Positions 2,935-56,100 of a DNA stretch of 64,000 nucleotides are shown one piece after another. The notes below the pieces were generated by a model, which did no database searches, had not been told where the DNA came from, and saw only the letters and a program-made list of their open reading frames with translations. Position 1 is the stretch's first letter. Each line of letters opens with the position of its first letter. A program made the position numbers and the translations under genes. Source of the DNA: Trypanosoma brucei (Eukaryota); contig CH464491.1 of the NCBI GenBank assembly GCA_000002445.1, positions 5,184,001 through 5,248,000 of the forward strand, in the 5' to 3' direction.

Positions 2935-2999
<65 letters not shown>

Positions 3000-12353: not shown

Positions 12354-12700
12354 TTAAAAGTTGTTGAATGCTACAAAAATAGTAAAAGCAGCAGCCATCA
12401 GAGCCGATTTGTTATTTAAAAGTAAACTATAATCACTTCAAGCTTTATTATTCCATTTGAAGTTATCGCCCTTTTGTACAGGCATCCGATGTAATGTGGC
12501 TAGTGCAATTTGCAGTTGCAGTTGTTTTATCCCCGTCTTTCTTTTCTCCTGTTTCGTCTCCTGTATTTTTTTGTCTCCTTCTTGTTTGGCTCCTTCTACA
12601 GCTGTTGTTAGTTTTTGCATTTTCTGAACATAGTAATAAGCCATTGTCTTCCCGAAGTTGTTCTTGTTGCAATGCTTACCAGCTCTAAAAAAACGGCGGT
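12354..12700 (-). pseudogene. VSG 3' fragment (C-terminal domain plus GPI signal only), with its 3'UTR at 12230-12353
   Basis: Minus strand encodes ...CNKNNFGKT..GDNFKWNNK and, in a shifted frame, NNKSALMAAAFTIFVAF*. There is no N-terminal domain. Confidence 0.55.
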
Positions 12701-14930: not shown

Positions 14931-15684
14931 GTATTATAGTGATTGCTTGTGCTTTTTACATGGTATAGGTTGAAACAAAAACGGTCTGCGTCTGCTGCTG
15001 TCACATTCCATGAGACGGTAAACAGCACATAGGTAAAACGGAAATAAATACACATTTAAAAAATTCGACTCCCTATTGACAACCCCTTATTTAAAATCCC
15101 CCTCTGCCACTTTCATTCTGTCTTTTTTTCCAAATAGGGAATGTTCTGCCAGAGTAGCGGCTACATCCGTCTTCCTTTGCACATTTGAGTCTGCTATCGC
15201 ATTTTTGCCATTGATACAGCCATTTCAACTGCGATACGAGTCAATTCTGAGTAAAATACGGTGCATCATTGTCATCATTATCTCCTGTTTGTCTCTAGAT
15301 GTATTATTTCTGTTATGAAAAATATACAGTCACCTCAGTCTTAATTTCCTCCATTTTGGTCATCTCTCGCTTCTTCCGCCGATGATGTAGGGGCTTGACG
15401 TGACCTATACACGGAATCTGTTTCTCGGTAATAATTCTCCACATATTTTCCTTGTGCATAATGATGCCAAACATCATATATGTGTTTAAAACGCACGTAT
15501 TCACTCTTCTCTCTCATTTTCTTTCTTTTTGCATATTCCTTAATAATCTTCATTCTACTCTTCTTTACTCCCAGGATAACCCACTGTCCGACCAGCTCAT
15601 TTACTCTTAATATACTTTAACCGTTGTTTTAAGTGCTTTTATTTTATTTCTTCTATTGACTATAATTGCTTCCCTCCTCTATAG

Positions 15685-15923
<239 letters not shown>

Positions 15924-16150
15924 GACATAACTAATATGCATAAAATAATGGATACAAACAAAAAATACTTATCATATCACTAATTTTTTATCCTATCTCA
16001 ATACCACTTTTCACCAGGTTTATACAATTATACACGTCTTAATAAAATTTTAGATTTTCAGATTTTGCAATGTTTTTACAACAGTGTTAAAGTAACTCAT
16101 ATTTTAGTAAATTTGGTATTTTCTCTCTTTAAAGAAAATCTTCTTGAATT

Positions 16151-17779
16151 TCATAAAGCTGAGCAAAAATTATAAAGTGCCACCAAACTCACAAAAGAAG
16201 GGGCCACGATAACAAATTTCTTATTAACTAGGATACTGAAATCACGGCATTTTGTTTTAGCTTTTCCCTTTCCATCAATGAAATCACTTCATCCGCAAAC
16301 AGATTTCTTTCCCTCCTTCGGTTTACCTGGCGCCTTGGAACATTTTTCGGGGTCATTATACTGGCCACAATTAGGGTCTTCTCCGCTTGTTGCTCCTTCT
16401 CCTTTTCCTGCTTGGGTTGCTTGCTGTTCTGCTGCTGTCGCATTCAATTTGCAGTGGGGGCCATCTTTCGCGTCACCTCCCTCCCATTTGCACTCTCCAT
16501 TGTTTTTGCAGTCTGTTGCTTTTTCTATTACTGCGCAGTTTGCCTTTGCTTTTGCCGTTTTGGGGCGCGCTCTTGTCGTGTTTTGGCGTTTCTATTTGTT
16601 GCTGGCGCTCGCTGTAGAGCAGTGTTTGCACTAGTTGCTTTTTGGCTTTCAGCTGTCTTGCCGCCTCCTTCCTTATTTGCACTGCTTGCTCGTGCTTGCG
16701 CAGTTGCTTTGCTATTGCAGAGAGTCCGTTGATCCACGGGATGTCCGTCACTTTTGCCGTGGCGCCCGTGCCGAGGTCAGTGTATTTTACACACATGCCT
16801 CCTCCCTGTTTTCCGTCGCAGTTCCCGTTTATGGTCTTTCCTAGTGTCGCTGCTCCCGAACGTCGAGCAATGAGCGCTGTAACCGCTGCTACCGAGTCTG
16901 CAGTAGTTCGCTCGTTAGCTGCGTTTTGGAGTTGAGGTCGCATAAGTTAAGGGCAGCCCCGATTGCTGCGGTTCCTGGGTCGGTGGAGGCGGTCCATTTG
17001 TTCGTTAGTCCTGTTTGGTATTCGCACGCTTTGACTTCGTTGTTGCTTGCACTGTTGTCGGCGATGCACACGCATATCAGGGTACCGGCGACCGTTTTGG
17101 CTGGGTTGGCTGCTGCCGTCCCCGAGCATGTGTTGGTTCGGCTGCCTCCCGTTGATGTGAACAGCTTTGTACCAGCCACCGGTGGTTCTGCTGCTGGTGT
17201 TTCTCCGTAGACGTGCTGGTTTATGAGTGTTTTGATCTTATCATCTGTCAGTAGATCGCTTTCCGGGGCTTTGGCTAATGCTAACGTTTCTATTGCTTCA
17301 GCCTCGGCGGCTAGTCTAGTGACTGCCGGTCGTATTGACAGACGCTGGTCCTGTGTTAGTCCCTGTAGTTTGTGCTTTTTTAAGACGTTTTGGTCTCCGG
17401 TTTTCTTTAATAGCGGTTCAGCCGCCTTTTTCCAGATCGGCCACTTTCCGGGCCAATCTTTGTGGTCCGTGAAATCTGCTTGCGGAAAGTCACGCGGCTT
17501 TTCCCTGGCGTCTGGCTGCCGGAAAATGTCAAGCCAGACGCTATCTGCCAGCGACATATTTAGCTCTAGCAGATCTGCCAGGTCTGTATCGAGCGCTGTC
17601 TCCGCCGATTCCAGCTTTGCGCGTCCATTTGCTAACTCGATTAAGCCACAGAGGGCTCCTCTCTCCCGCTCATTGTCTCCCGCCGCTACGTTTCCTCGCG
17701 CGGTGTCTGTTGTTAGAACTATGGCAATAAGTATCGCCACTTGTAGATGACTGCCGCGTCTTTGTGGCAGTGGCGGCAT
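16151..17779 (-). pseudogene. VSG pseudogene (three frames)
   Basis: N-terminal ORF 16889-17779 (ATG, signal HLQVAILIAIVLTTDTARG, ERGALCGLIELA). Middle ORF 16473-16943. The C-terminus ...[21 protein letters not shown].. is in another frame. No 70-bp repeat is found upstream before the ingi element. Confidence 0.7.
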
Positions 17780-18763
17780 TACGACGTTTACTAGTTTCTT
17801 CTTTTTAAAGGATGTGCGTTCAAGCTGAGTCGTTGGTTTTTTTGTTACAGTTTGGTGCTATAGAAGATTGCCATTTGCTGTTCAGTGCCTTGCCAACCTT
17901 TTAGAGCAGCCACAGCTAGAGTTCTTTTGTTTAACGCTGAATCGGTAACTATTATAAAATGGAAGTGCTTATCTTTTGTGCTGGTTTAGTAAGATGATCT
18001 TGCCGCATTAAAGAAGATAAATGTGACCTTCTATGGGCAATCTCCATAAGTTAAAAACTAATTGAGCTTTTGGTGTCTTTTTTACACCTACAGCAGCCAA
18101 CGCATCCTTTGAACACTGGATTTATTAAATTACACTCACAAACGTCTTAAATATTGGTTTTAGGTATATTTTAACTCTTAATTCTAATATACGTCACTCT
18201 ATATCTATAACTATTGCATCTTTCCTTCACATTCCCAATTTCCTACCTGTTTGCTTTTAAAAAAGTTTAGATAGGTCTGTAAATGTAAAAAAATTAGAAT
18301 TTATGATTTTCACTCTCTTCTATCAACTTATTCCTCCTATGTTTTTCCTGAACTTCGAAGAACAAGATAACACTGTTGCTTCTCGCACACGTGGCCCCTC
18401 TTTCCCTCTTTTTTTTTGGATGGTGATACTGAGTTCCTCAGACGTTCGAAATTGGAAATTTATGTGCTGACGCGTACTGCTAATCTTGGTCTTGCGGCTA
18501 GCCTTATATAAGATACGCTTGTTTTAAACTGTTTTATCGTCGGCCCGTATATCAACACGGATTTTTTGGTATCGCCATTAATTTTCTATACTTTATAGAA
18601 ATAGGCTGCGGTTCCATCTGCGTGAATTATTCCTCCCTCATTGCTTCTGCCAGTCGGGGGTTTGGTCGGCTGCCTACTCCTAAGTATTCACCGTACCCGC
18701 CGTGCTATATGCATTGCCTGCGCCGCTTCGATGTGTTTCGCCGTGGTCTAGTTTTGGCTTTAT

Positions 18764-21700
18764 CCCTCGCGATGCCGGCCACCTCAACGTGGTGCCAGGG
18801 TCCAGTACCCCGTATCATCGGGGAAAGCCAAGAGCCAGCAGAGTTCCTTTCATGAGGAACACTGCTGTGCTCCGGCTACGGCATCATACAGCACAGGGAT
18901 CAGCAGCGTCTTGCTGGGACACCGTTCTTCATTTGTCTGTCCCTGGGGACGTGCCAGCGTGCCATCAACAGTATCATCCGCACTAAGATGCTGCTGTCCG
19001 GTGATGTGGAAGAGAATCCCGGACCGTCGTTGCGCGGGATGCAGTGGAACTGCGCCGGGGTATCTCAAGGAAAGAGATTAGCACTCCACAAAACCCTTGT
19101 TGATGAGCGGATCGCCTTTTGTCTGTTGAGCGAGACAAGGATGACGCCTGGAGAGGCGGCTTGCTTTAGCGTTGCTGGCTACCAACATCACGGAATAGCT
19201 CGTAACTTCAAAGGAGGTGGTGTATCAATACTAGTGAGGGGGGACCTACCAGTCGAGACCGGTATGGCCGTTGTTGGTCGCATTGAACAAGTGCATGCAA
19301 CAATTCACCTTGCACGTGGAACGGCGCTGACTGTCACGTCGGCATACATCCCACCAAAACACACCTTCACGGCAACTGACCTAGATACGCTTCTGACAAC
19401 TGACGGTGCCCAGCTCATCGGTGCAGACGCTAACGCACACGCGTTGGCATGGGATCGCGCGAGCCCACCAAATACAAGGGGTGAAACCCTCACACAGTGG
19501 TGCATTGACAATTAGTTTCTGGTCTGCAACACTGGTGAGTGCACCAGGTACGCGCGCCACCACGGGGAGTCCACCCCTGATGTGACACTGTCAAGGAATT
19601 GCACAGTGCACACGTGGACATCGCTGTATTCTCCCGATAGCGATCACCATCACATATTTTTCGACGTTATCGTTGGAGACGACACAGATGCACTGAGTTG
19701 CCCGCGGCTTCGAAAGCCCATGTACGCATGGCTAAAAGCTGACTGGAGGAATATCCGTCTCAAGGTTGACGAGCTCTGCAGGAAAATTAATAGAGAGAAG
19801 AACGTCAACACCCTGGAACAGAAATTGAGCTTCGCCATCCGCATTGCGACGAAGGTCTCCGTCCCCCGTGGCTGCAGAGCAACGGCATCACATTGGACAC
19901 CTGAGCTCGCGAAACTCGATGAAGAGATCGCTGGATGCGGACCCTCCCACCGAAGGGAAAAGTTGGTAGCCACGCGTAAGCAGATCCTGGACCGTACCAC
20001 AAAGAAGAGATGGAGCACGCTATGCTCCAGACTTGCGGTGTCAGACCGCTGCAGTTGGCACATTGTCAAGAAGGTATATCCGCCACGACCACTAACCACA
20101 CCGGCTGTACTTGTTGATAACGCGGCCATCACGGACTACTGTCAAGCTGAGAGGTTCATTAAACTGTACTCGTCCCGCGCAAGAAGGCACCCCGACTCAC
20201 ACCCACCGGCACCAATAAAGACGATAGCGAGTGAGTTCAGTCCCATCACGATGGCTGAACTACGGAAATCGATCAAACAACTTCCGAGTGGATCCACAGC
20301 CGGACCTAATTGCTTATACAACGAGGCACTACAACATCTCGGTAGAACAGCGTTGAATGTTGTTCTGAGGCTATTCAATGAGAGCCTACGAACGGGAGTC
20401 GTGCCGCCTGCATGGAAGACTGGTGTTATCATCCCCATCCTGAAGGCCGGAAAAAAGGCGGAGGACCTCGATTCTTACAGGCCAGTGACGCTCACGAGCT
20501 GTCTCTACAAAGTCATGGAGCGCATAATTGCCGCGAGACTTAGAGACACTGTTGAGTCCCAGCTGACGCCGCAGCAATCAGGCTTTCGCCCCGGATGCTC
20601 AACGCTCGAACAACTCCTGCACGTCCGCGCTGCCCTCCGCCGTCCCACGCACCAATCTCGTACGGGTGCTGTATTTGTCGACTACGAGAAGGCATTCGAT
20701 ACAGTAGACCACGACAAAATTGCGAGGGAAATGCACAGAATGAAGGTATCACCCCACATTGTGAAGTGGTGCGTATCATTTCTGAGTAACCGAACTGGCA
20801 GAGTGAGATTCAAGGAGAAGCTTTCCAGAAGCAGAACATTTGAGCGAGGAGTGCCACAAGGAACTGTCCTTGGCCCAATCATGTTCATTATTGTCATGAA
20901 CTCGTTGAGCCAACGCCTTGCAGAAGTGCCGTTACTGCAGCACGGATTCTTTGCAGACGACCTGACGCTACTTGCGAGGCACACAGAGAGGGATGTCATC
21001 AACCACACACTACAATGCGGTCTAAACGTGGTGTTACAGTGGTCAAAAGAGTACTTCATGTCTGTCAACGTAGCGAAAACAAAGTGCACACTCTTCGGGT
21101 GTATAGAGCGTCACCCCCTTACATTACAACTGGACGGCGAAAGAATAGGAGCTGACAGGACACCGAAGCTTCTAGGAGTAACATTCCAGTGTCTGCAAGG
21201 GATGGCAACACATGCGGCCAAAACGAGACGCAAGATGGATTTCAGACTACTGCAGATAGCAGCCATCTCAGCTTCTACATGGGGGCCAAGACGACAAGTA
21301 CTGAGAGCTTTTTATCTAGCACTCGTACAGGCACACACCATGTATGGCATTGAGGTATGGTACTGGGACGCTTCGGAACGAAGTCGCGACCTCCTTGCAT
21401 CAGCACAACACAAAGCCAGTCGCATCATAGCCGGCATACCACATGGGACGCGCAAAGAGGACTCTCTGCTGGAAGCAAACCTCCTGCCACTCAAGACGAC
21501 CACTCTTGTGCGCAGCATGAAATTCATGCTGATGTGTGAGTCACGAGGCGGATGTTTGCGGCGCAGTGCTGAATAAGTATACCACAGCAAACACCCAGTC
21601 AGAGTCTTACATTCCCGCATCATGCGGTCCTATCCCCAACTCCGCATTGAGCCACGCGAGCAACCACTAGAGACATCGACGCTCCGCCACAGCTGCCGAC

Positions 21701-24028
21701 CGCTATTTCACACGCAGATAAAGCCTGTGTGCGCTGATGACCCTGACGATGTCAAAAGGGAGGCTTCCGAAAAGTGGATTGAACGGCATTTTGCACGGAG
21801 GGGGAAGGAGCCACCGCGGCGAGAGCACTACGAATTGTGGACTGATGGATGCGTGTCCCTCGGTGAGAAGTCCGGAGCAACTGCCCTGCTCTATAGAAAC
21901 AACACGCTGATTTGCGCACCCAAAACTGGAGCAGGGGAACTCTCATGCAGTTACAGAGCGGAATGCTTAGCATTAGAGATAGGACTGCAACGGCTGCTGA
22001 AATGGCTTCCGGCATACAGAAGCACAACGAGCAGGTTGTCCATCTTCTCTGACTCGCTGTCAATGTTAACAGCACTGCAGACAGGCCCCCTAGCCGTAAC
22101 GGACCCAATTCTAAGACGACTATGGAGGCTTCTGTTTCAAGTTCAGAGAAGGAAGATACGTATCCGACTGCAATTTGTGTTTGGCCATTGTGGCGTGAAA
22201 CGGAATGAGGTTTGTGACGAAATGGCCAAAAAGGCCGCAGATTTACCACAGTTGCGAGACACATGGATCCCCAACATCATTGCTTATGCGAAGCGAGTGC
22301 TTAGGTCGGAAGAAGTCTATGAGAACACTCATAGGTTTGGTATCACGGGCAACCACTTTCCAACAAAACCTAAGAAAGAAGAACTGACGAGGGAGGAAGA
22401 AACGGCACTGGCACGCTTTCGGGTTGGGTCCTCAAGACACTATGGCTGGATGTTGCGAAAGATCAACCCGAGTGTGCCTCCACAGTGCCGATGGTGCAAC
22501 CCGCAACATGCAGAGATAGGGCCAACAATACAAACAGCCCTACCTATTGCGACACGCACTCTTCAGAGAACCTCCGAACCGACCAAATGTACGGAATGTG
22601 ATGCCACATACCAATGCCGCTCGAGTGCTGTAACGCACATGGTAAACATGGCTTTGTGCGAGCTGATGCCCTCAGGAGGATCAAATACGGCGATGCAACA
22701 CCTGCAGTGGACATCCCCCCGGAGTCCCCTCCAGTGGTGGCGATCGTTCCTCTACCATTCGAGCACACGAGTCCAGATGAGACCGCAGGTGCTTCATTGT
22801 ACCCTCTGTACCTCCAAATTCGCAGTGCCAGGCCGACTATTACACCACCTTAGAACAATACATGGCATAGGCAGCGGTAGTTTGCCGCGTGAAAAGGGGG
22901 CGAGAGAACGAGGACTCAGTGCAAGGAGATGGTAGAGCTCCAGCAGCGCCAGCCTCTCAGGATACACGGAAGCTGCCGTTTCAATGTGACCTGTGCGAGC
23001 CGAGCTTCGGTACACGTTCTTCCCTGTCACTACACAAAAAATTCAAACATAAGAGCATAGTGACGGAGGACGGTACCGTGGTGGTGGTGCAACTCCCTCG
23101 TAAGCGTGCCCGTGAGGGAAACGTTGACGTCCCGGGGAAGGGCGAGGTGCAGTGTGGTGTGTGCCAAAAAGTGCTCAGTTGCAGGGACTCCCTCATCCGA
23201 CACTGTAAGGCTTTCCACAAAGGTGAGGGAGTCGAGCTTAAATGCAGCAAAAGCACAAAATTGTGTGCCACTGATTCCCCGCATACAAACACATACATGT
23301 ACATCCATCTTGGTGTGCCCGACATGCGGAAGGCAGTGTGCTAGCAAAACTGGCCTCACCCTACATCAAAAGAAGATGCACGGTATGAAGGTAGAGCGCG
23401 CTGTTACCAGCCAACGCGGCGAATGCGAAGAAACGTCGCTGCACTTGATGAGCTGTCCCGGTTTGAAGGAGTTACGTGTCAGGTTTGCGGTAGAAGGTGA
23501 GTGTGTGCAGGATGTATGTTTCTCTAAAAGGCTGGCGCAGTTTCTCATTGCGGTTGAACGGAGCCGGCCACAGGTGAAGTCCTCACCTAAGGTAACAGTC
23601 ATACAACCCACTCTCCCTTCTGCAACTTCCCCCCTTATTGCCGAGTGTGGAGCTAGCAGGAAAAGCACCGGACGCAGGAATAGTCCAGACACCCTTAGAG
23701 ACAGAGGAGGTATGCAGTCAACAAGCAACAGAAACAGAAAGAGGGGGAGAGAATAATAAACGAATAACAAAAATCAAAACAAAAGGATTGGTAATTGACA
23801 TCTTTGAGAGAGTCCGGGGTGGGGGGTTTCTCGCCCCATCTGCTGTATTCCGTTCAACTTCGGAGCTACAATAAAAAATTATAGAGAGTGTGTTAGGGTG
23901 AATAAAAAAGGGAGACTCTGCCACAGTCGCCAGACCGATAGCATATCAGTGCTCTACGGTGATGGCTGATGGCCGCGCCAGTGGGGGGAAACTCCCACGA
24001 AGGCACGAAGAAAATTCCAAAAAAAAAA
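18764..24028 (+). mobile_element. ingi non-LTR retrotransposon, full-length but degenerate (copy 1)
   Basis: Starts with the RIME/ingi 5' end ccctcgcgatgccggccacctcaacgtggtgccagggtccagtac and ends in poly(A) at 24019-24028. Collinear with copy 2 (48352-53607) at a few percent divergence. The ORF is broken into five pieces (18988-19515, 19582-21576, 21622-22935, 22889-23344, 23106-23756) by a GAA>TAA change at 21574, a 4-bp deletion at ~22650, a +1 insertion at ~22757 and a 10-bp insertion at ~23300. Confidence 0.9.
19003..19026 (+). other. 2A-like peptide motif DVEENPGP in the ingi ORF (copy 1)
   Basis: gatgtggaagagaatcccggaccg encodes DVEENPGP, matching the D(V/I)ExNPGP viral 2A consensus. 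Confidence 0.7.
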
Positions 24029-24030
24029 TG

Positions 24031-25056
24031 CCTCTGTTTTTCTGCTTCGACGAGCATTTTTTGGGCAGCAAGAAACTGTCCCACCCAGGGGAGTTTTGTA
24101 ATATCCTTGTTCCGTACGACGCCATTGTAGTCTATGCAAGCGGATGCTTCGTCTTGTCCGTCGAAGTCGTTGTTGGTTTCTCCGCCTCCTATCACGTTCT
24201 CTGTGTTTGCGCCGGTGGATGGTGCTGTGCCAAACAAACTTGCGAATTGGGCAAGCGCCGCGTCGATGGTTGATGGTGTCACATGCCGCTGGGTTGCTGA
24301 GGGTGGACACTTTGTTACTATCGTTTGTAGTGCTCTCTTAGCGCTCTGTGCTGTGTCTCCACCGCTGTTTTTGTAGCTTTGTTCGTTGCCGCCTGCCACA
24401 CACAGGTTGGTCGCACCCGCTGAGGAACACAGGCAAGCCAAATCCGATGCTAGGCTGGCTCCCTGCTCGGCCGGACTGTCCTTTTTGCACCTGTTCGCGT
24501 GGTTGCCATATATGCTGTCGTCCGTAGTCTCCTTGTTTGTATCACCCGTTAGCGCTTGCTTCAGGTGGCTTCTTACACCGCCAGCCAAAGCTGTTATTGC
24601 TTGTTGTGCATCGTTGAGCCGTTTTCTGGTTTCGGCTGCTGCTGTTCGAATTTTGTCCATCGCACATTGTACACGCTGCCGGGTTTCTTCGTCTCCGATA
24701 CGTAAATATTTTGTTTTTGCTTCTGGTGTATGTGCCTCCAGCAAACTTTTCTTTTTTTGCTCCCACGCTTGCTTGTTGAACGTCGAAAAAATTTTTGCTG
24801 TGAAATTAACTGTTGGCAGCGTTACAATGTACAAATCCTCTATGTCGTCTGGCGGTTCAGGTGTGTCGCTCCGCGTTAAGTCTGTTGTGTTTGGTTCCGA
24901 TGTGCACAGCTTGTAAATTTCGCAAAATACAGAGAATTCTTTGCCGTTCTTTGTGGTCGCTGCGGCGCCAAGTTGAGCTGCCAATAGTAGAAGGGCCAAT
25001 GCTTTTGATATGGCGAATATAGCGCATCCCGACATTGCATACCCGTATCTGATCAT
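24031..25056 (-). pseudogene. VSG N-terminal domain (~342 aa) truncated by the ingi poly(A) end; C-terminal domain and 3'UTR absent
   Basis: ATG at 25056 (or 25035, MSGCAIFAISKALALLLLAAQLGAAATT). VSG sequence runs to ...LVEAEKQR, then reads into ingi sequence. Confidence 0.75.
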
Positions 25057-26567
25057 CCCTACCTTTCAGTCGTGACTTCTTAACTCTGGATGTTCAGAAA
25101 CAAAGTAAGAATCGAGTGCCCTTAGTGGCTACAAGAAAGTCCACTGCTTTTCTTGCAAGCTGCTGTTGATTATCGCCCGTTGCTTTTGGATTGATGAATA
25201 CGATTTATATCCATTCACATTATTTCTAGCCACCTATACCCCTCATCTACGAAATATCCTCTTTCGACACCCTATTTTTCCACTAAAATAAAAGCTTTAT
25301 ATGCTCACTATTACTTTCCCCCACTTGAAATCAATACATAACATGAGAATCAAATAATAGATTAAGAAATACAGTCACAACCATCGTCGCTGTTGCGCCC
25401 ATTCATTTTTGTGATGTGGTGTTTTCTTTTGAGTGCACATGGTACTTCCATCCGCCGCATCATATGTTAATTTGCAATTTCGGCCCCCAGTTGTGCCGCC
25501 AATCCCCCTTTATACTTTATGTGCTTTATGCTGTGCTTTGTGTATGGACAATTATGAGCATTGAGGAAGGGTATTTGACTCTATCTTCCTAGAAACTTCT
25601 TACATTTGTAACTTAGATTGTCACTTTTGTTTCATTTGTTTTACTTTAAATAATTATCTGATACTTGGTGCTTTTTCGAAGATAAACGATAGAGAAAGCT
25701 GCAACAGGATAAAAGTCTCATGAGAAATGGCTCAACTATGGTGATTTATTCCCTCTGTGTTAGATTTGCTTGTATTGTTTTACGTCACCTCATTTCTAAT
25801 CTACTAAATAAGCTATTCAAGTTGTGCCTACACACCTCTAATGGCTTGGCCATAGAAAAACAATGAAATTCTTAGTTCTATCGAATATTTTTACCAACTC
25901 TACTTTATAGGGTGTTAATAAGGTTAAATGTTTCTACACTGCCTTTCAATGCAATAATTTTATTTTCGTCTCTTTTCATTTGCCGTTTCTATGGTTTTCC
26001 GGATAGTTTTCAACATCTTTAAATGTTGTGATATTTTTTTGAGCTTTACACGTATGTTTAGGTACAATCATTAGCTGCTTGTTTGTTCACTTCTCTCAAG
26101 TTCCAAATTCTGTTCATAGCTGCACTTTTACAAGAATTGTGCACAATTTATAAGCTAAATTCTCTACATTAGATCGGTTTGCATCCATGACGACGATTTC
26201 AGTAAAAATAATGTATTTTTCAAAGAGTTATTGAGAACATATTAGTAATAGTGGTTTTATATCTTTTGTACCCCTAGTGCTTGTTTGTGTAACATGTAGC
26301 GCTTTATGTTGGTCTATACATTGCGTTTTTCCAATCATCATTGTCCCCTCGGGGTTACGTTGTGTATCATAATACCCATCATCATGTTAAAGTTTGAGAG
26401 TATGCATATTACATCTCCTTCATTTCATTTCCTTTAAAAATAATTATCCTGGACCCTATCCATCCATATTTTTCACTTTTCCGTTCACTTACTCACTTAC
26501 TCTGATTGCGCTCTTGTCATTGTTTTAAGTTTTTGTACTTTTTTCCATTTGATCTTCACCACCACCT

Positions 26568-26640
26568 TTGTAATATTAGTATAAACACACTCACAACACA
26601 TTCATATCATTATCTTTACGTTTTTCACTACTTATTATAA
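26568..26640. repeat. Degenerate 70-bp repeat upstream of the truncated VSG at 24031-25056
   Basis: taatattagtataaacacactcacaacacattc core with a weak ATT tract. Confidence 0.55.
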
Positions 26641-36299: not shown

Positions 36300-36395
36300 A
36301 TTATTATATTTTTTGCATACTCACACTCACAACACTCTTCTATTATTATTATCATATTATTATTATTATCATTACTGCTCTTATTATTAATCTAA
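36300..36395. repeat. 70-bp repeat upstream of the VSG pseudogene at 33641-35121
   Basis: catactcacactcacaacactcttctattattattatcat... Confidence 0.7.
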
Positions 36396-36636
36396 ATAAT
36401 ATTCACAAGAAAATATAATAAAATAACTTAATCAAATGAGAATTTACGAAGTTTTCGTCTTAAATCACACTAATTTGAACCCATATTCCATTTTTTTACT
36501 TTTTTAAAAAATTCTCAAAGATTTTATAAAAGTGTTAAAATGTAATAATTTTGGAGGTTTCAGAAAAATTTCCGAAATTTAGTGGATTTCATAAATTTCA
36601 TAAAACTGAACGAAAATTCTTATAATACTAAAATCC

Positions 36637-36830
36637 TTAAAACAGAAAGTCCACCAAAGCAGCGGCAATCAGAGCAAACTTTTTAGTTACGAGAAAACTA
36701 GAGGAGCGGCAAGCTGGAGTTACTGGGCCCTGTCACTCGTTGTAGGTAATCCACTCAACAAAAAGCTTTCTTGCCAGCAGGAGCAGTGCCCGGACACCGT
36801 TGAATTTCTCAGGAGTGTCGTAACTAGAGC
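36637..36830 (-). pseudogene. VSG 3' fragment (fragment A) with 3'UTR at 36400-36636
   Basis: Encodes ...EWITYNE*QGPVTPACRSSSFLVTKKFALIAAALVDFLF*. This is closely related, at DNA level too, to the tail at 13330-13480. Confidence 0.6.
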
Positions 36831-36839
36831 AATTTACCC

Positions 36840-38030: not shown

Positions 38031-38148
38031 GATAATTTTATTCATAAAAATATTTTACACGCGCAGGAAGCCTAAAAAAATAATTATTTCTAGGAGATTG
38101 ATAAATGTGTTAAAATACATTAAATTTTTAACAAGAAAAAAAGGGGAA

Positions 38149-46339: not shown

Positions 46340-47974
46340 CGTTGCTTCTTCCTAGTGATATAATTTTAGAGGGCAGAGTTCGTTGCTTTGTTTTTTGTTG
46401 TCAAGTCGCCATCGCTTGTGCAGCAACTTTCGTACTGCCGTTTGTCAGGTGAGTTCTTTTGCTCACTGACTGTTTGGTTTGTAATGGTCTGATTCAGTTT
46501 GTTTTTTTCGGTTCCTCTGTCGTCAACTTCACGCACAGCAGTGGTCGTCGTTATGCACTGCCACCGCTGGATGCAGTCACGGTCTGTGAAACAGTGCAGT
46601 GCAGTGCATACAGGTGCCGTTGTTGCCGCCTCAACAAGTATTCAGTGCAGTTTCCGCTGGATCTTCACCACCTGACTTCCAAAAAAAAAATTGTTTTGTT
46701 CCAAGGTGATCTTGCGTCGTGAGTTGAGTTGTTGCAATATCCTCTAACAAAACAATTTTGGCTTAACTACAGTTACGTTCCGTGGGGCGGTATTGCTTAT
46801 TGATGTCTGTTTGCTTTTGATTGGATTTCAACCGCTTCTCCGCGCTTGATCTAGTAAAAAGATGCTGAGCAAGGTCTTTTCGGTCGTTTATTTTGGTAAA
46901 TATGATGACGGGCGACGGGAGTCGCTGCATTATTAATGGTCTTGTCGGCCTGATGGAGCGCGTACCGCCGAGGTAGCGGAGGTTTTAGAAAGTTTATAGT
47001 CACGTCTTTTCCACGGGTTTTATTTGCTGTTTTTTTAGCTTCGAATCGACATTGCCACCGCGTTATGCTGGGAGTCTGTCTCTCCGTGACGTTCTCTGTT
47101 TGTTTCGTTTCATTGCCATCTAAAGTCGAAAATGCCGTTGGTCATTCTATCCGATTCTATCTTATCCTCTTTTTAAAATTCTGCTGTAATTTTTTATAAT
47201 CCAATTTCGAAGCGCCTACGTGTTCCACTGTTAGTTTTATTCTCTAAGTTTTGAGCGCTGTTTTGAGTGCTGTGTTTGTTGGAGAAGTTGCCAAAAAACA
47301 CGCAGTTTAACGCAAATAGTCTCCACATTTAACTCTAAAAATATACCTTTTAACACTTGTATTTAGAACACTTAATATCCCCGTAGTTAGTGGTAGCATC
47401 CTCATTGTAGTGCCAGAGTTTAGTACAGAAAAAAATTTAATTTTCTGCGGAAGCTAACTGTTATCACATGAACACTGGCATATCAGCCACAGTAAGTGAT
47501 ATCTGTTGTTCCAGCGCAAGTGCACTTGTGGATGTTGAACATATTTATATGTATGCAGTGCAAATGAATCCGCTAATAAGTTTCTACTTCATGTTCCGCT
47601 TTTGAGTACTCTGTCCAGGGGGAACCCATCGAAGTCGTATACACGCCATTAGCCGTATAGCTAGTGGTGAATTTACAGGGTGATATGCCACAGTGGATAT
47701 AGGAAGGGATAGCGGGCTGCACTGGAGACCGTCCCTTTAGACCAACGTGTGAATCATGGTCGCCATGTACTGGAGAACTGGGTTGAAAATAATATTCACT
47801 TAAGAGGGTTTTAGTCGGCAGTGGCTCGTTCTCGAAGGCTGATTCCAACAGCCTTATGTCATGTGTCATGGCGTTCATAAATGCATTTCTTCCTCTTCGC
47901 TGGAATATGGTGGCCACGATGGTCATCAATCTGCACCTTGAAAAAGATTTTCCAGTCGTGCTGCAACAGCACTG

Positions 47975-48045
47975 ACACTATAATAATAGTATATACACGC
48001 ACACGACACTCTCCTATTATTATTATTTTCATTATCATAACTATT
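47975..48045. repeat. 70-bp repeat upstream of the VSG at 44891-46339
   Basis: tataataatagtatatacacgcacacgacactctcctattatta, near-identical to the unit at 33300-33345. Confidence 0.7.
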
Positions 48046-48255
48046 ACTGATATCCATAAAAAAACAAAATAAACTAGTTTATAATAGTGCTCAATTTTCA
48101 TACCCTCTTACTTTGTAGCTTTAAGCCACTTTCTTACTCATTTACAAATTTTTACATTTTCATTAAAAAATGTTAAAGTACTTCACATTTTAGAATTTTT
48201 ATAAATTTCTCTGAAAATAGCAAATTTGAGAATATTATAAAAATTTTCATTAACT

Positions 48256-48351
48256 TTAAAACACCAAGGCCACAAAAGTAGCATCCATACTCAGAAACAA
48301 TTTCTTATGGACCAGGAAACTGGAATCCTGGCGCTTGCCTTCAATCCAACC
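48256..48351 (-). pseudogene. VSG C-terminal tip (fragment C) abutting the ingi 5' end; 3'UTR at 48060-48255
   Basis: Encodes ...KDSSFLVHKKLFLSMDATFVALVF*. The sequence immediately upstream on the VSG strand is ingi. Confidence 0.65.
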
Positions 48352-48359
48352 CCCTGGCG

Positions 48360-51300
48360 ATGCCGGCCACCTCAACGTGGTGCCAGGGTCCAGTACCCCG
48401 TATCATCTGTGGAAGCCAAGAGCCAGCAGCGTTCCTTTCATGGGGAACACTGCTGTGCTCCGGCTACGGCATCATACAGCACAGGGATCAGCAGCGTCTT
48501 GCTGGGACACCGTTTTTCATTTGTCGGTCCCTGGGCACGTGCCAGCGTGCCATCAGCAGTATCATCCGCACTAAGATGCTGCTGTCCGGTGATGTGGAAG
48601 AGAATCCCGGCCCATCGTTGCGCGGGATGCAGTGGAACTGCGCCGGGCTATCTCAAGAAAAGAGATTAGCACACCACAAAACCCTTGTTGATGAGCGGAT
48701 CGCCTTTTGTCTGTTGAGCGAGACAAGGATGACGCCTGGAGAGGCGGCTTGCTTTAGCGTTGCTGGCTACCAACATCACGGAATAGCTCGTAACTTCAAA
48801 GGAGGTGGTGTATCAATACTAGTGAGGGGGGACCTACCAGTCGAGACCGGTATGGCCGTTGTTGGTCGCATTGAACAAGTGCATGCAACAATTCACCTTG
48901 CACGTGGAACGGCGCTGACTGTCACGTCGGCATACATCCCACCAAAACACACCTTCACGGCAACTGACCTAGATACGCTTCTGACAACTGACGGTGCCCA
49001 GCTCATCGGTGCAGACGCTAACGCACACGCGTTGGCATGGGATCGCGCGAGCCCACCAAATACAAGGGGTGAAACCCTCACACAGTGGTGCATTGACAAT
49101 TAGTTTCTGGTCTGCAACACTGGTGAGTGCACCAGGTACGCGCGCCACCACGGGGAGTCCACCCCTGATGTGACACTGTCAAGGAATTGCACAGTGTACA
49201 CGTGGACATCGCTGTATTCTCCCGATAGCGATCACCATCACATATTTTTCGACGTTATCGTTGGAGACGACACAGATGCACTGAGTTGCCCGCGGCTTCG
49301 AAAGCCCATGTACGCATGGCTAAAAGCTGACTGGAGGAATATCCGTCTCAAGGTTGACGAGCTCTGCAGGAAAATTAATAGAGAGAAGAACGTCAACACC
49401 CTGGAACAGAAATTGAGCTTCGCCATCCGCATTGCGACGAAGGTCTCCGTCCCCCGTGGCTGCAGAGCAACGGCACCACATTGGACACCTGAGCTCGCGA
49501 AACTCGATGAAGAGATCGCTGGATGCGGACCCTCCCACCGAAGGGAAAAGTTGGTAGCCACGCGTAAGCAGATCCTGGACCGTACCACAAAGAAGAAATG
49601 GAGCACGCTATGCTCCAGACTTGCGGTGTCAGACCGCTGCAGTTGGCACATTGTCAAGAAGGTATATCCGCCACGACCACTAACCACACCGGCGGTACTT
49701 GTTGATAACGCGGCCATCACGGACTACTGTCAAGCTGAGAGGTTCATTAAACTGTACTCGTCCCGCGCAAAAAGGCACCCCGACTCACACCCACCGGCAC
49801 CAATAAAGACGATAGCGAGTGAGTTCAGTCCCATCACGATGGCTGAACTACGGAAATCGATCAAACAACTTCCGAGTGGATCCACAGCCGGACCTAATTG
49901 CTTATACAACGAGGCACTACAACATCTCGGTAGAACAGCGTTGAATGTTGTTCTGAGGCTATTCAATGAGAGCCTACGAACGGGAGTCGTGCCGCCTGCA
50001 TGGAAGACTGGTGTTATCATCCCCATCCTGAAGGCCGGAAAAAAGGCGGAGGACCTCGATTCTTACAGGCCAGTGACGCTCACGAGCTGTCTCTGCAAAG
50101 TCATGGAGCGCATAATTGCCGCGAGGCTTAGAGACACTGTTGAGTCCCAGCTGACGCCGCAGCAATCAGGCTTTCGCCCCGGATGCTCAACGCTCGAACA
50201 ACTCCTGCACGTCCACGCTGCCCTCTGCCTCCCCACGCACCAATCTCGTACGGGTGCTGTATTTGTCGACTACGAGAAGGCATTCGATACAGTAGACCAC
50301 GACAAAATTGCGAGGGAAATGCACAGAATGAAGGTATCACCCCACATTGTGAAGTGGTGCGTATCATTTCTGAGTAACCGAACTGGCAGAGTGAGATTCA
50401 AGGAGAAGCTTTCCAGAAGCAGAACATTTGAGCGAGGAGTGCCACAAGGAACTGTCCTTGGCCCAATCATGTTCATTATTGTCATGAACTCGTTGAGCCA
50501 ACGCCTTGCAGAAGTGCCGTTACTGCAGCACGGATTCTTTGCAGACGACCTGACGCTACTTGCGAGGCACACAGAGAGGGATGTCATCAACCACACACTA
50601 CAATGCGGTCTAAACGTGGTGTTACGGTGGTCAAAAGAGTACTTCATGTCTGTCAACGTAGCGAAAACAAAGTGCACACTCTTCGGGTGTATAGAGCGTC
50701 ACCCCCTTACATTACAACTGGACGGCGAAAGAATAGGAGCTGACAGGACACCGAAGCTTCTAGGAGTAACATTCCAGAGTCTGCAAGGGATGGCAACACA
50801 TGCGGCCAAAACGAGACGCAAGATGGATTTCAGACTACTGCAGATAGCAGCCATCTCAGCTTCTACATGGGGGCTAAGACGACAAGTACTGAGAGCTTTT
50901 TATCTAGCACTCGTACAGGCACACACCATGTATGGCATTGAGGTATGGTACTGGGACGCTTCGGAACGAAGTCGCGACCTCCTTGCATCAGCACAACACA
51001 AAGCCAGTCGCATCATAGCCGGCATACCACATGGGACGCGCAAAGAGGACTCTCTGCTGGAAGCAAACCTCCTGCCACTCAAGACGACCACTCTTGTGCG
51101 CAGCATGAAATTCATGCTGATGTGTGAGTCACGAGGCGGATGTTTGCGGCGCAGTGCTGAAGAAGTATACCACAGCAAACACCCAGTCAGAGTCTTACAT
51201 TCCCGCATCATGCTGTCCTACCCCCACCTCCGCATTGAGCCACGCGAGCAACCACTAGAGACATCGACGCTCCGCCACAGCTGCCGACCGCTATTTCACA

Positions 51301-53336
51301 CGCAGATAAAGCCTGTGTGCGCTGATGACCCTGACGATGTCAAAAGCGAGGCTTCCGAAAAGTGGATTGCACGGCATTTTGCACGGAGGGGGAAGGAGCC
51401 ACAGCGGCGAGAGCACTACGAATTGTGGACTGATGGATGCGTGTCCCTCGGTGAGAAGTCCGGAGCAACTGCCCTGCTCTATAGAAACAACACGCTGATT
51501 TGCGCACCCAAAACTGGAGCAGGGGAACTCTCATGCAGTTACAGAGCGGAATGCGTAGCATTAGAGATAGGACTGCAACGGCTGCTGAAATGGCTTCCGG
51601 CATACAGAAGCACAACGAGCAGGTTGTCCATCTTCTCTGACTCGCTGTCAATGTTAACAGAACTGCAGACAGGCCCCCTAGCCGTAACGGACCCAATTCT
51701 AAGACGACTATGGAGGCTTCTGCTTCAAGTTCAGAGAAGGAAGATACGTATCCGACTGCAATTTGTGTTTGGCCATTGTGGCGTGAAACGGAATGAGGTT
51801 TGCGATGACATGGCCAAAAAGGCCGCTGATTTACCACAGTTGCGAAATACATGGATCCCCGACATCATTGCTTATGCGAAGCGAGTGCTTAGGTCGGAAG
51901 AAGTCTATGAGAACACTCATAGGTTTGGTATCACGGGCAACCACTTTCCAACAAAACCTAAGAAAGAAGAACTGACGAGGGAGGAAGAAACGGCACTGGC
52001 ACGCTTTCGGGTTGGATCTTCAAGACACTATGGATGGATGTTGCGAAAGATCAACCCGAGTGTGCCTCCACAGTGCCGATGGTGTAACCCGCAACATGCA
52101 GCGATAGGGCCAACAATACGAATGCCCCCAACTGTTGCGACACGCACTCTTCAGAGAACCTCCGAACCGACCAAATGTACGGAGTGTGATGCCACATACC
52201 AATGCCGCTCGAGTTCTGTAACGCACATGGTAAACAAACACGGCTTTGTGCGAGCTGATGCCCTCAGGAGGATCAAATACGGCGATGCAACACCTGCAGT
52301 GGACATCCCCCCGGAGTCCCCTCCAGTGGTGGCGATCGTTCCTCTACCATCGAGCACACGAGTCCCGATGAGACTGCAGCTGCTTCATTGTACCCTCTGT
52401 ACCTCCAAATTCGCAGTGCCAGGCCGACTATTACACCACCTTAGAACAATACATGGCATAGGCAGCGGTAGTTGCCGCGTGAAAAGGGGTCGAGAGAACG
52501 AAGACTCATTGCAAGGAGATGGTAGAGCCCCAGCAGCGCTAGCCCCTCAGGATACACGGAAGCTGCCGTTTCAATGTGACCTGTGCGAGCCGAGCTTCGG
52601 TACACGTTCTTCCCTGTCACTACACAAGAAATTCAAACATAAGAGCATAGTGACGGAGGACGGTACCGTGGTGTTGGTGCAATTCCCTCGTAAGCGTGCC
52701 CGTGAGGGAAACGTTGACGTCCCGGGGAAGGGCGAGGTGCAGTGTGGTGTGTGCCAAAAAGTGCTCAGTTGCAGGGACTCCCTCATCCGACACTGTAAGG
52801 CTTTCCACAAAGGTGAGGGAGTGGAGCTTAAATGCAGCAAAAGCACAAAATTGTGTGCCACTGATTCCCCGCATACAAACGCATCCATCTTGGTGTGCCC
52901 GACATGCGGAAGGCAGTGTGCTAGCAAAACTGGCCTCACCCTACATCAAAAGAAGATGCACGGTATGAAGGTAGAGCGCGCTGTTACCAGCCAACGCGGC
53001 GACTGCGAAGAAACGTCACTGCACCTGATGAGCTGTCCCGGTTTGAAGGAGTTACGTGTCAGGTTTGCGGTAGAAGGTGTGTGTGTGCAGGATGTATGTT
53101 TCTCTAAAAGGCTGGCGCAGTTTCTCATTGCGGTTGAACGGAGCCGGCCGCAGGTGAAGTCCTCACCTAATGTAACAGTCATACAACCCACTCTCCCTTC
53201 TGCAACTTCCCCCCTTATTGCCGAGTGTGGAGCTAGCAGGAAAAGCACCGGACGCAGGAATAGTCCAGACACCCTCAGAGACAGAGGAGGTATGCAGTCA
53301 ACAAGCAACAGAAACAGAAAGAGGGGGAGAGAATAA
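48360..53336 (+). CDS. ingi polyprotein: AP-endonuclease, 2A-like motif, reverse transcriptase, RNase H, three C2H2 zinc fingers; one internal in-frame TAG
   Basis: ORFs 48360-49103 and 49170-53336 are in the same frame, and the codons at 49104-49169 contain no stop. RT motifs FVDYEKAFDTVDHDKI and FADD. RNase H-like region ELWTDGC...ECVALEIGL...FSDSLS. Fingers FQCDLCEPSFGTRSSLSLHKKFKHK, QCGVCQKVLSCRDSLIRHCKAFHK and CPTCGRQCASKTGLTLHQKKMHG. Confidence 0.85.
48591..48614 (+). other. 2A-like peptide motif DVEENPGP (copy 2)
   Basis: gatgtggaagagaatcccggccca, in frame within the ingi ORF. Confidence 0.7.
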
Positions 53337-53619
53337 TAAACGAATAACAAAAATCAAAACAGAAGGATTGGTAATTGACATCTTTGAGAGAGTCCGGAGT
53401 GGGGGGCTTCTTGCCCCATCTGCTGTATTCCGTTCAACTGCGGAGCTACAACAAAACGTTATAGAGAGTGTGTTAGGGTGAATAAAAAAGGGAGACTCTG
53501 CCACAGTCGCCAGACCGATAGCATCTCAGGACTCTACGGTGATGGCTGATGGCCGCGCCAGTGAGGGGAAACTCCCACGAAGGCAGGGAGAAAATTCCAA
53601 AAAAAAATTTTTATTGTTA

Positions 53620-54515
53620 TCCCTTTAGCTTGGCATAACTCATTTGCTACTGCCTCCGCCGTGGTTAGCATTTGGCGGTATAACATGGTTTGCGGACGGT
53701 TTGTCTGCTTGATATGCTGCGTGCATGTTGATGCTCTCTCCTCGGCTGCAAAAGCTACTTTGGCTTCCTGGACACCGAGCCTGCGTTTGCCGTCCCAAGG
53801 CTCTTGGCGCTATTGAGGCACCCGCCAGTTTCGAAGACGTTGTTGCTGGAGGTGCTGATGTCGCCTTTGCCGCGCGTATCGAGTTTCATTTGTGGTAGTT
53901 GAAACAACTCGTCGGGATGTAGCTTCATGACTCCTATTTTTTTAGCTCCGATGTTGCCGCCGTTATGTGGGGGCCGCTAGTAAGATCTGCTTGGTAGTCT
54001 TTGGCTGCAGTTTGTTGGAATGTAACGGCAATGTCGCATTTTTTTCTGTGCCCGCTAGTAAATTGTCTTGCCCTGTCCCTGATTTGCCGTTTGAGATGAC
54101 GGCTTGTGCTCTGTCGGTGGCGTAGATGGCCATTTTAAGTGGTGCTATTCTGGAGTTCAGGGTTAGAAACGCGTTTTCCAGGGCTTTCAGTCCTGTGCTG
54201 AGTTGCTGTGCTTGTTCTTGCGCCCGCCACCGTTGTTAGTGCAAAAAGTGCCACGTACTCTGTTTTGGTTTCGGCATCTTGAGCTAATGTGGCTGCTGTT
54301 GAAAGTTGTATGATGTCATTTGAAAGCTCTGGTAGCCTGTTGTCTGCCATTGTGATTTGCGTACTAAATTCGCTGCTTAATTTCTGTAGGTATCCAATCT
54401 CCTTTCACGGCGTATTAACAGCATCAGTGAGTGTTCTCTTTGCCGGTTGTGCTGCCGCCAATTTGGCGGTTAGAGTAAAGAGTACAAAGCCTGTGGTTTC
54501 CGCGCGCATTGACTA
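53620..54515 (-). pseudogene. Highly degenerate VSG N-terminal remnant directly flanking the ingi poly(A)
   Basis: Minus strand gives MRAETTGFVLFTLTAKLAAAQPAKRTLTDAVNT (signal-like), then a series of frameshifted VSG-like ORFs such as 54135-54350. Confidence 0.5.
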
Positions 54516-56039: not shown

Positions 56040-56100
56040 ATATATTAATAATTACACATTGACAACACTCTCGTATCATTATTATCATCATCATCATCAC
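56040..56100. repeat. Degenerate 70-bp repeat
   Basis: acacattgacaacactctcgtatcattattatcatcatcatcatcac. Confidence 0.55.

What the first reader, a model, noticed from the sequence alone, without database searches (positions are those of the whole stretch)
18764..25056. Both ingi elements lack target-site duplications and sit between mismatched VSG halves, consistent with ingi-mediated ectopic recombination or deletion
Copy 1 is flanked on its 5' side by a non-VSG spacer belonging to the VSG at 16151-17779, which thereby lacks any 70-bp repeat. On its poly(A) side it abuts a VSG N-terminal domain (24031-25056) that has lost its CTD and 3'UTR. Copy 2 is flanked on its 5' side by the last ~30 codons of a VSG plus an intact 3'UTR (48060-48351), and on its poly(A) side by a badly degenerated VSG N-terminal remnant (53620-54515). 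Neither element shows a direct repeat at its boundaries: copy 1 has ...gttttggctttat|ccct at the 5' junction and aaaaaaaaaa|tgcctctg at the poly(A) junction; copy 2 has ...tcaatccaac|ccc and aaaaaaaaa|tttttattg. Simple insertion would leave a TSD and the two halves of one VSG adding up to a full gene, and they do not. Homologous exchange between two ingi copies, or insertion with a flanking deletion, fits better. It would have removed one 70-bp block, one CTD and one 3'UTR.
Basis: partly seen in the sequence, partly recalled or inferred. Interest (0 to 1): 0.55.

Follow-up and report, generated by a model that had tools for sequence, protein, structure and literature searches.

The report
Two ingi retrotransposons lacking target-site duplications
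Two full-length ingi retrotransposons in a silent VSG gene array of Trypanosoma brucei TREU927 have no target-site duplications and sit where about 0.5-1 kb of VSG cassette is missing, which is a real but ordinary footprint of recombination or deletion at mobile elements.

Summary
The window is a silent VSG array from a T. b. brucei TREU927 megabase chromosome record. It holds two full-length ingi on the + strand, at 18764-24028 and 48352-53607. Homology between them starts at CCCT and ends at the poly(A). Neither has the 12-bp TSD typical of ingi: 4/12 and 2/12 matches, which is chance level.

- **Copy 1** joins a unique spacer upstream of a VSG pseudogene to a VSG_B N-terminal domain. That domain is cut at Pfam position 339/352. 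One CTD, one 3'UTR and one 70-bp block are missing.
- **Copy 2** joins a 30-codon VSG tail plus 3'UTR to a frameshifted A-type N-terminal domain cut at codon ~303. About 165 codons are missing.

So neither is a simple insertion. New evidence is that the two ingi are mosaics: 0.77% divergent over nt ~341-3440 and 3.35% outside. They also share a private stop codon, so homologous exchange has acted on them.

I could not separate ingi-ingi recombination (favoured, ~0.45) from insertion with target deletion (~0.28) or misassembly (~0.1).

Two of six comparison ingi from T. equiperdum also lack TSDs. Ingi/RIME recombination is already described. Interest is low.

The parts
15640..15943 (-). 70-bp repeat block with a long TAA/ATT tract; last 70-bp block before copy 1
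   Evidence: repeat families D3-D5; core match at 15681
16151..17779 (-). VSG pseudogene 'A': VSG_B N-terminal domain plus C-terminal domain, frameshifted
   Evidence: Pfam VSG_B and Trypan_glycop_C on stitched frames; ORFs 16473-16943 and 16889-17779
17780..18763 (.). 984-bp unique spacer upstream of VSG A, with no 70-bp repeat; 5' flank of ingi copy 1
   Evidence: no other match in the window; no VSG protein match; no 70-bp core
18764..24028 (+). ingi copy 1: full length, degenerate, 10-A tail. In-frame stops at element nt 90, 750 and 2811, and two frameshifts
24029..25056 (-). VSG 'B' N-terminal domain (342 codons), cut at the ingi poly(A); CTD and 3'UTR absent
   Evidence: Pfam VSG_B profile 4-339/352; homologues P0001-P0005 continue beyond the junction
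26551..26640 (-). next 70-bp repeat, upstream of VSG B
47939..48065 (-). 70-bp repeat preceding the copy 2 left flank
48066..48351 (-). VSG 3'UTR (48066-48255) plus the last 30 codons and stop of a VSG C-terminal domain (48256-48351); 5' flank of ingi copy 2
   Evidence: sequence; similarity to other cassette 3' ends; tail match
48352..53607 (+). ingi copy 2: full length, colinear with an intact 1656-aa ingi ORF except for one in-frame stop at element nt 750; 9-A tail
53609..54509 (-). frameshifted A-type VSG N-terminal remnant, codons 1 to ~303, cut at the ingi poly(A)
   Evidence: homology to VSG 1203 (P0006) residues 1-303 across at least 5 frame changes; no Pfam hit on single frames
56041..56100 (-). 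next 70-bp repeat, upstream of the remnant
   Evidence: (family D5)
19104..22203 (+). central tract of copy 1 (element nt ~341-3440). It is near-identical to copy 2 at 48692-51791 and includes the shared private stop at 19513-19515 / 49101-49103
   Evidence: 24/3100 differences inside versus 72/2152 outside; max-chi2 46; 0/300 permutations reach it

Best explanation
Both elements began as ordinary ingi insertions somewhere in VSG arrays. Each later lost one original flank through homologous recombination with another ingi or RIME copy. The exchange could have been a deletion between two direct copies, an unequal exchange, or an ectopic exchange between arrays. Each present element would then be a chimera. 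Its 5' flank comes from one insertion site and its 3' flank from another. That leaves no TSD, and it leaves VSG cassette pieces at the two sides that do not fit together. At copy 1 the result is loss of a CTD, a 3'UTR and a 70-bp block. At copy 2 it is loss of about 165 codons.

Shown: absence of TSDs, non-contiguous flanks, and mosaic ancestry inside the elements.
Inferred: that a crossover, rather than a non-crossover conversion, swapped the flanks.
For: 1. The termini are intact and precise (CCCT... to poly(A)), yet TSD matches are at chance level.
2. The flanks are non-contiguous VSG cassette pieces.
3. The two ingi are mosaics. They differ by 0.77% over nt ~341-3440, against a family mean of 2.4-3.7% there, and by 3.35% outside. 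The max-chi2 value is 46 and 0/300 permutations reach it.
4. They share a private CAG>TAG stop at nt 750, absent from 9 T. equiperdum copies.
5. In the 3' 1.8 kb, 24 of 57 differences are alleles that both segregate in other ingi copies, against 5 of 24 in the centre. A cluster of such sites lies at nt 3452-3497. This indicates different ancestry rather than point mutation.
6. The divergent segments run to within 5 nt of the 5' end and ~45 nt of the poly(A). That is expected if exchange continued into the flanks.
7. Two breakpoints for two TSD-less elements is the minimum a one-crossover-each model needs.
8. The T. b. gambiense genome paper states that ingi and RIME recombine and cause rearrangements (PMC2854126).
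9. From general knowledge, T. brucei repairs breaks mainly by homologous recombination.
Against: 1. Internal mosaicism can arise from non-crossover gene conversion, which leaves flanks untouched. The 3' region is also patchy, with shared-private and discordant sites interleaved, which looks more like several conversions than one crossover.
2. After removing the ingi, the spacing between 70-bp blocks is 2805 bp (one cassette) and 5624 bp (two cassettes), which is typical for this array. The flanks therefore look like neighbours missing only ~0.5-1.5 kb. Exchange between random cassette positions would give this by chance only about 5% of the time, on my rough phase argument. It fits a local deletion better.
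3. No reciprocal product or partner element is in the window.
4. The 5' flanks match the empirical ingi target motif only 3/7 each, which is uninformative.
Confidence: 0.45

Rival explanations
1. Retrotransposition with target-site deletion. Each ingi inserted once by target-primed reverse transcription. The second-strand break fell upstream of the first nick, or the cDNA was joined to a resected end. That removed ~0.5 kb (copy 2) or ~1 kb (copy 1) of target and left no TSD. The mosaic structure of the elements would come from later, unrelated gene conversion.
For: No TSD is present. The missing material lies on the 5' side of each element, as this model requires. The flanks look like parts of the same or adjacent cassettes, with only ~0.5-1.5 kb missing and normal 70-bp block spacing once the ingi is removed. 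From general knowledge, deletion sizes match those reported for L1 insertion-mediated deletions. The copy 2 5' junction has a 2-nt CC overlap.
Against: Both elements are full length with exact 5' ends. Both carry the same disabling stop in the endonuclease domain. The model therefore needs two trans-mobilised copies of one defective lineage to land 30 kb apart, each with a rare deletional outcome. Copy 1 has no junction microhomology. The 3' flank of copy 1 does not start with the T-run seen at clear ingi TSDs. As far as I know, insertion-mediated deletion has not been documented for ingi.
Confidence: 0.28
2. Assembly artefact. The 5.2-kb, >95%-identical ingi repeats were joined to the wrong flanks, or their interiors were blended, when the TREU927 subtelomere was assembled from Sanger reads. 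The mismatched flanks and the mosaic interiors would then not be biological.
For: The source is the TREU927 reference, a 5,261,801-bp record carrying VSGs EAN80683-6. The interiors are near-identical while only the end regions, which are anchored to unique flanks, differ. That is the pattern expected from repeat homogenisation.
Against: Swapping flanks between the two copies in the window restores neither a TSD nor a complete VSG. The central tract still carries 24 differences. Two of six ingi in an independent T. equiperdum assembly also lack TSDs, so no artefact is needed to explain the observation.
Confidence: 0.1
3. Insertion at a junction that was already broken. The VSG cassettes were already truncated or fused by ingi-independent array rearrangements. 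The ingi then landed at those junctions, possibly by endonuclease-independent capture at a double-strand break.
For: Orphan VSG C-terminal tails lacking an N-terminal domain and a 70-bp repeat occur without any ingi at ~12387, ~36640 and ~38155. Cassette truncation in this array therefore does not need ingi.
Against: Both discontinuities coincide to the base with the element ends, which is very unlikely for independent events. Endonuclease-independent insertions are usually truncated or lack a poly(A) tail (general knowledge from L1). Both of these are full length with 9-10 A.
Confidence: 0.08
4. Simple insertion with a TSD, followed by mutational decay of the TSD and unrelated small deletions next to the element.
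For: Both flanking VSGs are old pseudogenes with many frameshifts. Degenerate TSDs do exist in the comparison set: L001 at 8/12, and L002 with an indel.
Against: The elements differ from relatives by only 2-5%, while the would-be TSDs differ at 8 and 10 of 12 positions. The model also needs a deletion ending exactly at the element boundary, twice.
Confidence: 0.04

Closest known systems
Canonical Tbingi/TbRIME insertions (ingi4 subclade) with a 12-bp TSD
   Same: Both copies share the ~5.25-kb length, the CCCTGGCG... 5' signature and the short poly(A). Both have the single ORF order of APE-type endonuclease, reverse transcriptase, RNase H and C2H2 finger. Their location in subtelomeric VSG arrays is also a known habitat (PMC3553974).
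   Different: The 12-bp TSD described as a hallmark of the clade (PMC3820030) is absent at both copies. Four of six T. equiperdum copies that I fetched do have one.
Ingi/RIME-associated rearrangements between T. b. brucei and T. b. gambiense (Jackson et al. 2010, PMC2854126)
   Same: [quoted passage not shown] This is the same class of event in the same reference genome.
   Different: Those cases were defined by comparing strains in chromosome cores. Here the inference rests on one genome only (missing TSDs, mismatched VSG pieces, mosaic elements), and the locus is inside a VSG array.
L1 and Alu recombination-mediated deletions in primates (from my own knowledge; Sen et al. 2006, Han et al. 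2008)
   Same: A chimeric element with intact ends, no TSD, flanks from two different insertion sites, and loss of the intervening DNA.
   Different: In primates the ancestral two-element allele is seen in an outgroup genome. No outgroup allele was available here.
L1 insertion-mediated deletions and endonuclease-independent insertions (from my own knowledge; Gilbert et al. 2002, Symer et al. 2002, Han et al. 2005, Morrish et al. 2002)
   Same: No TSD, and loss of hundreds to thousands of bp of target on the 5' side of the new element.
   Different: Those L1 copies are often 5'-truncated or show junction microhomology. Both ingi here are full length, and only copy 2 has a 2-nt overlap.

Membership tests
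Tbingi non-LTR retrotransposon | Conserved 5' signature starting CCCTGGCG..., ~5.2-kb length and a 3' A-tail | tested here: met
   Both copies align end to end at 94-97% with nine T. equiperdum / T. b. gambiense ingi.
Tbingi non-LTR retrotransposon | One long ORF with endonuclease, reverse transcriptase, RNase H and C2H2 finger | tested here: met
   Pfam Exo_endo_phos(_2), RVT_1, RNase_H and zf-C2H2_4 in that order. Both copies are colinear with the intact 1656-aa P0044. Copy 2 has 1 stop. Copy 1 has 3 stops and 2 frameshifts.
Tbingi non-LTR retrotransposon | 12-bp target-site duplication (PMC3820030) | tested here: not met
   4/12 and 2/12 matches. The best with boundary slippage is 6/12 and 5/12, inside the null distribution.
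Tbingi non-LTR retrotransposon | Conserved target pattern upstream of the 5' TSD | tested here: inconclusive
   An empirical motif AGGATGA at -20..-14 scores 7/7 in L001 and L005 and 5/7 in L003 and L009, but only 2/7 in L008, which has a perfect TSD. Copies 1 and 2 score 3/7 each, against 1.75 expected by chance. I could not obtain the published consensus.
Recombination-derived chimeric retroelement (as in L1/Alu recombination-mediated deletion) | Intact element ends, no TSD, and non-contiguous flanks | tested here: met
Recombination-derived chimeric retroelement (as in L1/Alu recombination-mediated deletion) | A switch of ancestry inside the element | tested here: inconclusive
   Breakpoints lie near nt 341 and 3440-3452, with discordant family alleles beyond them. 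Non-crossover conversion or assembly blending would give the same pattern.
Recombination-derived chimeric retroelement (as in L1/Alu recombination-mediated deletion) | An ancestral allele with two elements, each with its own TSD | not testable with these tools
   No T. brucei genome collection can be searched by DNA. Exact-protein look-ups of window ORFs found either nothing or only TREU927 itself.
Insertion-mediated deletion | An empty-site allele that contains the deleted segment | not testable with these tools
   Same limitation. Only the protein sequences of homologous VSGs (P0001, P0006) show what is missing.
Insertion-mediated deletion | Microhomology or truncation at the 5' junction | tested here: inconclusive
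   Copy 2 has a 2-nt CC overlap. Copy 1 has none. Both elements are full length.
VSG cassette of a silent array | Order of 70-bp repeat, spacer, N-terminal domain, C-terminal domain, 3'UTR | tested here: not met
   This holds for most units in the window. It is broken at both ingi. At copy 1 no 70-bp block, CTD or 3'UTR lies between VSG A and VSG B. At copy 2 codons ~304-470 are missing.

The most novel reading that the evidence does not exclude
Ingi retrotransposition into fragile VSG arrays may be intrinsically deletional. Full-length ingi cDNA, supplied in trans to endonuclease-defective copies, would be used to bridge resected breaks. That would erase C-terminal domains, 3'UTRs and 70-bp repeats. 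Ingi would then be an active producer of recombination-incompetent VSG fragments, rather than a passive substrate for homologous recombination.
Probability: 0.12. Interest if true: 0.45.

Novelty: new member of a known kind. Interest (0 to 1): 0.2.

Why it matters
These loci show concretely how retrotransposons remodel the silent VSG archive. One event left a VSG without its upstream 70-bp repeat, which is the homology used to copy it into an expression site. Two events left N-terminal domains without C-terminal domains; these are usable only as donors for mosaic VSGs. That is a useful annotation for anyone modelling which archive genes can be activated. It does not change what is known about ingi or about antigenic variation. 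TSD-less elements are the expected trace of recombination among ~500 near-identical repeats in an organism that relies on homologous recombination.

Tried and rejected
- **Reciprocal exchange between the two copies in the window.** Rejected. The cross-combined 12-mers do not match. The 30-codon tail at 48256-48351 plus the N-terminal domain at 24029-25056 would still lack ~115 codons. The tail belongs to a very common CTD class, so 'same family' cannot be tested meaningfully.
- **Segmental duplication of an ingi-containing block.** Rejected. Homology stops exactly at the element ends, and all four spacers are unique in the window.
- **The missing VSG parts or other ingi/RIME fragments lying elsewhere in the window.** None found.
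- **Synteny or an empty site.** Exact-protein look-ups for three window ORFs found nothing. The cluster look-up only identified the source as TREU927. VSG homologues P0001-P0004 and P0006 have no contigs on record.
- **Pfam on single frames of the copy 2 right flank.** No hit. A three-frame concatenated query was needed to find VSG 1203.
- **Using the ingi target motif to tell original 5' flanks from deletion junctions.** The motif built from six elements is too weak. Both copies score 3/7.
- **The key paper on ingi TSDs and target consensus (Bringaud 2004) and the 2009 subfamily paper.** Neither is held.
- **Rfam.** Nothing found in the window at gathering thresholds.
Full report
**What the window is.** The window is a silent VSG array. 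About 19 VSG cassettes lie on the minus strand. On the plus strand each reads 70-bp repeat, 3'UTR, C-terminal tail, N-terminal domain, spacer. Four intact VSGs are identical to T. b. brucei TREU927 proteins EAN80683-EAN80686, which lie on a 5,261,801-bp record. The source is therefore the reference genome.

**The elements.** Two ingi lie on the plus strand, antisense to the VSGs.
- They occupy 18764-24028 and 48352-53607.
- BLAST between them, with 300 nt of flank included, aligns only the elements. The alignment runs from the first C of CCCT to the poly(A), at 97.9% identity over 5268 nt.
- Both carry endonuclease, RT, RNase H and zinc-finger domains in the ingi order.
- Both are colinear with an intact 1656-aa ingi protein from T. 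equiperdum. Copy 2 is interrupted by one in-frame stop. Copy 1 has three stops and two frameshifts.
- No other ingi or RIME fragment is in the window.

**No target-site duplications.** Ingi-clade elements make a 12-bp TSD (PMC3820030).
- The 12 nt before CCCT and the 12 nt after the A-tail match at 4/12 for copy 1 and 2/12 for copy 2.
- With up to 3 nt of slippage on either side the best scores are 6/12 and 5/12.
- Random pairs of positions from the same window give 3-4/12 strict and 5-6/12 with slippage as the commonest values.
- Cross-combining the flanks of the two copies also gives nothing.

**Comparison set.** I fetched six full-length ingi with both flanks from the T. equiperdum assembly GCA_003543875.1.

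| Locus | TSD result |
|---|---|
| L005 | perfect 12-bp TSD |
| L008 | perfect 12-bp TSD |
| L001 | degenerate, 8/12 (null p about 0.006) |
| L002 | degenerate, 7/12 ungapped, about 12/13 with one indel |
| L003 | none, 3/12 |
| L009 | none, 5/12 |

The test can therefore detect TSDs. It also shows that TSD-less ingi are not rare.

**The flanks of copy 1.**
- To the right, 24029-25056 (minus strand) encodes 342 residues matching Pfam VSG_B positions 4-339 of 352, with no C-terminal domain.
- Homologues of 88-90% identity are 444-460 aa long and run on past the junction: '...LVEAEKQR|QQLDANKVILQGL...'.
- About 145 codons and the 3'UTR are therefore gone.
- To the left, 17780-18763 is unique, non-VSG sequence directly upstream of the frameshifted VSG at ~16151-17779.
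- No 70-bp core exists between 15681 and 26570. One 70-bp block is therefore missing for two VSGs.

**The flanks of copy 2.**
- To the left is a normal 70-bp repeat, a 3'UTR and the last 30 codons of a VSG.
- To the right, single-frame Pfam scans were blank.
- A three-frame query found VSG 1203 of strain Lister 427.
- Tiled alignment shows 54509 down to 53609 to be colinear with its residues 1-303 through at least five frameshifts. The match ends at the base next to the poly(A).
- Residues 304 to about 470 are absent.

**Why this is not a decayed simple insertion.** The elements differ from other family members by 2-5%. At that divergence a 12-bp TSD would show 0-1 mismatches, not 8-10. The missing VSG sequence also ends exactly at the element boundary in both cases.

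**New evidence: the elements are mosaics.**
- Differences between the two copies are very unevenly spread.
- There are 24 differences in 3100 nt (0.77%) between element nt ~341 and 3440, against 72 in 2152 nt (3.35%) outside. No permutation out of 300 reached the observed max-chi-square of 46.
- This is not a generally conserved region. Among the T. equiperdum copies the mean pairwise divergence is 2.4-3.7% in the same windows.
- Inside the tract the two copies share a private CAG-to-TAG stop at nt 750. All nine comparison copies lack it.
- In the 3' 1.8 kb, 24 of 57 differences are sites where both alleles occur in other ingi copies. In the centre the figure is 5 of 24.
- A cluster of such sites at nt 3452-3497 marks a breakpoint.
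- The divergent segments reach nt 5 at the 5' end and nt 5221 of ~5265 at the 3' end.

The ends of these two elements therefore have different ancestries from their shared centre. Homologous exchange among ingi copies has acted on them. The alternative is that the assembly blended them.

**Mechanism.** I favour homologous recombination between ingi copies that replaced one flank of each element (confidence 0.45). It explains the clean ends, the missing TSDs, the mismatched flanks and the chimeric interiors with one process. That process is already reported for ingi/RIME (PMC2854126).

The main rival is insertion with target deletion (0.28). It is helped by one observation. With the ingi removed, 70-bp blocks are 2805 bp apart at copy 2 and 5624 bp apart at copy 1. 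These are normal values for one and two cassettes in this array. The flanks therefore look like neighbours missing only ~0.5-1.5 kb. Exchange between random cassette positions would give that by chance only about 1 time in 20, by my rough estimate. A local recombination between two closely spaced elements would also fit.

Against the rival, it needs two trans-mobilised copies of the same endonuclease-defective lineage to land 30 kb apart. Each must also have a rare deletional outcome and a perfect full-length 5' end.

The remaining rivals are less likely:
- Misassembly of a 5.2-kb repeat in a Sanger-era subtelomere (0.1) cannot be excluded with these tools.
- Insertion into a pre-existing broken junction (0.08) is suggested by three ingi-free orphan C-terminal tails in the window. 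It requires base-exact coincidence twice.

**What could not be done.** No collection available here holds T. brucei genomes searchable by DNA. Exact-protein look-ups returned only TREU927. Empty sites, two-element ancestral alleles and reciprocal products therefore could not be sought. An empirical motif, AGGATGA at -20 to -14, is perfect in two elements with TSDs. It was too loosely obeyed to classify the two 5' flanks, which score 3/7 each.

**Verdict.** It is a further instance of a known kind of event in a well-studied reference genome. About a third of comparison elements show the same lack of TSD. Interest is 0.2.

Noticed in passing
window 19513-19515 and 49101-49103: Both ingi copies carry the same in-frame TAG (AAC CAG > AAT TAG) inside the endonuclease domain. 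It is absent from all nine T. equiperdum / T. b. gambiense copies compared. Both copies are therefore non-autonomous and share recent ancestry in this tract.
   Followed up: yes
window ~12387-12700, ~36640-36950, ~38155-38450 (minus strand): Orphan VSG C-terminal tails, each with no N-terminal domain, spacer or 70-bp repeat before the next VSG 3' end, and no ingi nearby. Cassette truncation or fusion in this array also happens without retrotransposons.
   Followed up: partly
L001 8480-8512, L005 5393-5425, L003 6960-6992, L009 2453-2485: A target motif AGGATGA lies at -20 to -14 relative to the ingi 5' end, just upstream of the 12-bp TSD, which tends to start with TTT. It is identical in two elements and 5/7 in two more, but only 2/7 in L008, which has a perfect TSD. 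It probably corresponds to the published ingi endonuclease site, which I could not read.
   Followed up: partly
L008 10958-11000 and L004 3646-3690: The T. equiperdum ingi in L008 and the T. b. gambiense ingi in L004 have the same 3' flank (atatattgaatcatttctcgattaaattcga). This looks like an orthologous insertion older than the split of these lineages.
   Followed up: no
window 15755-15943: An unusually long, pure (TAA/ATT)n tract of about 190 bp sits inside one 70-bp repeat block. It is far longer than in the other blocks of the window.
   Followed up: no
window 18764-18840 and 48352-48430: Rfam found nothing at gathering threshold anywhere in the window. The first ~77 nt of L1Tc/ingi-clade elements are reported to form an HDV-like ribozyme (PMC4035085, abstract seen).
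   Followed up: no
L003 6993-12241 and L009 2486-7750: Two of six full-length T. equiperdum ingi lack any TSD although their 5' flanks carry the target motif at 5/7. These are further candidates for flank exchange.
   Followed up: partly
window 36306-41475: There is a 5.2-kb gap between successive 70-bp blocks. It contains two CTD fragments, about 1.2 kb of low-complexity sequence that reads as phenylalanine-rich on the VSG strand, and one intact VSG (38959-40488). It is an irregular double unit without an ingi.
   Followed up: no
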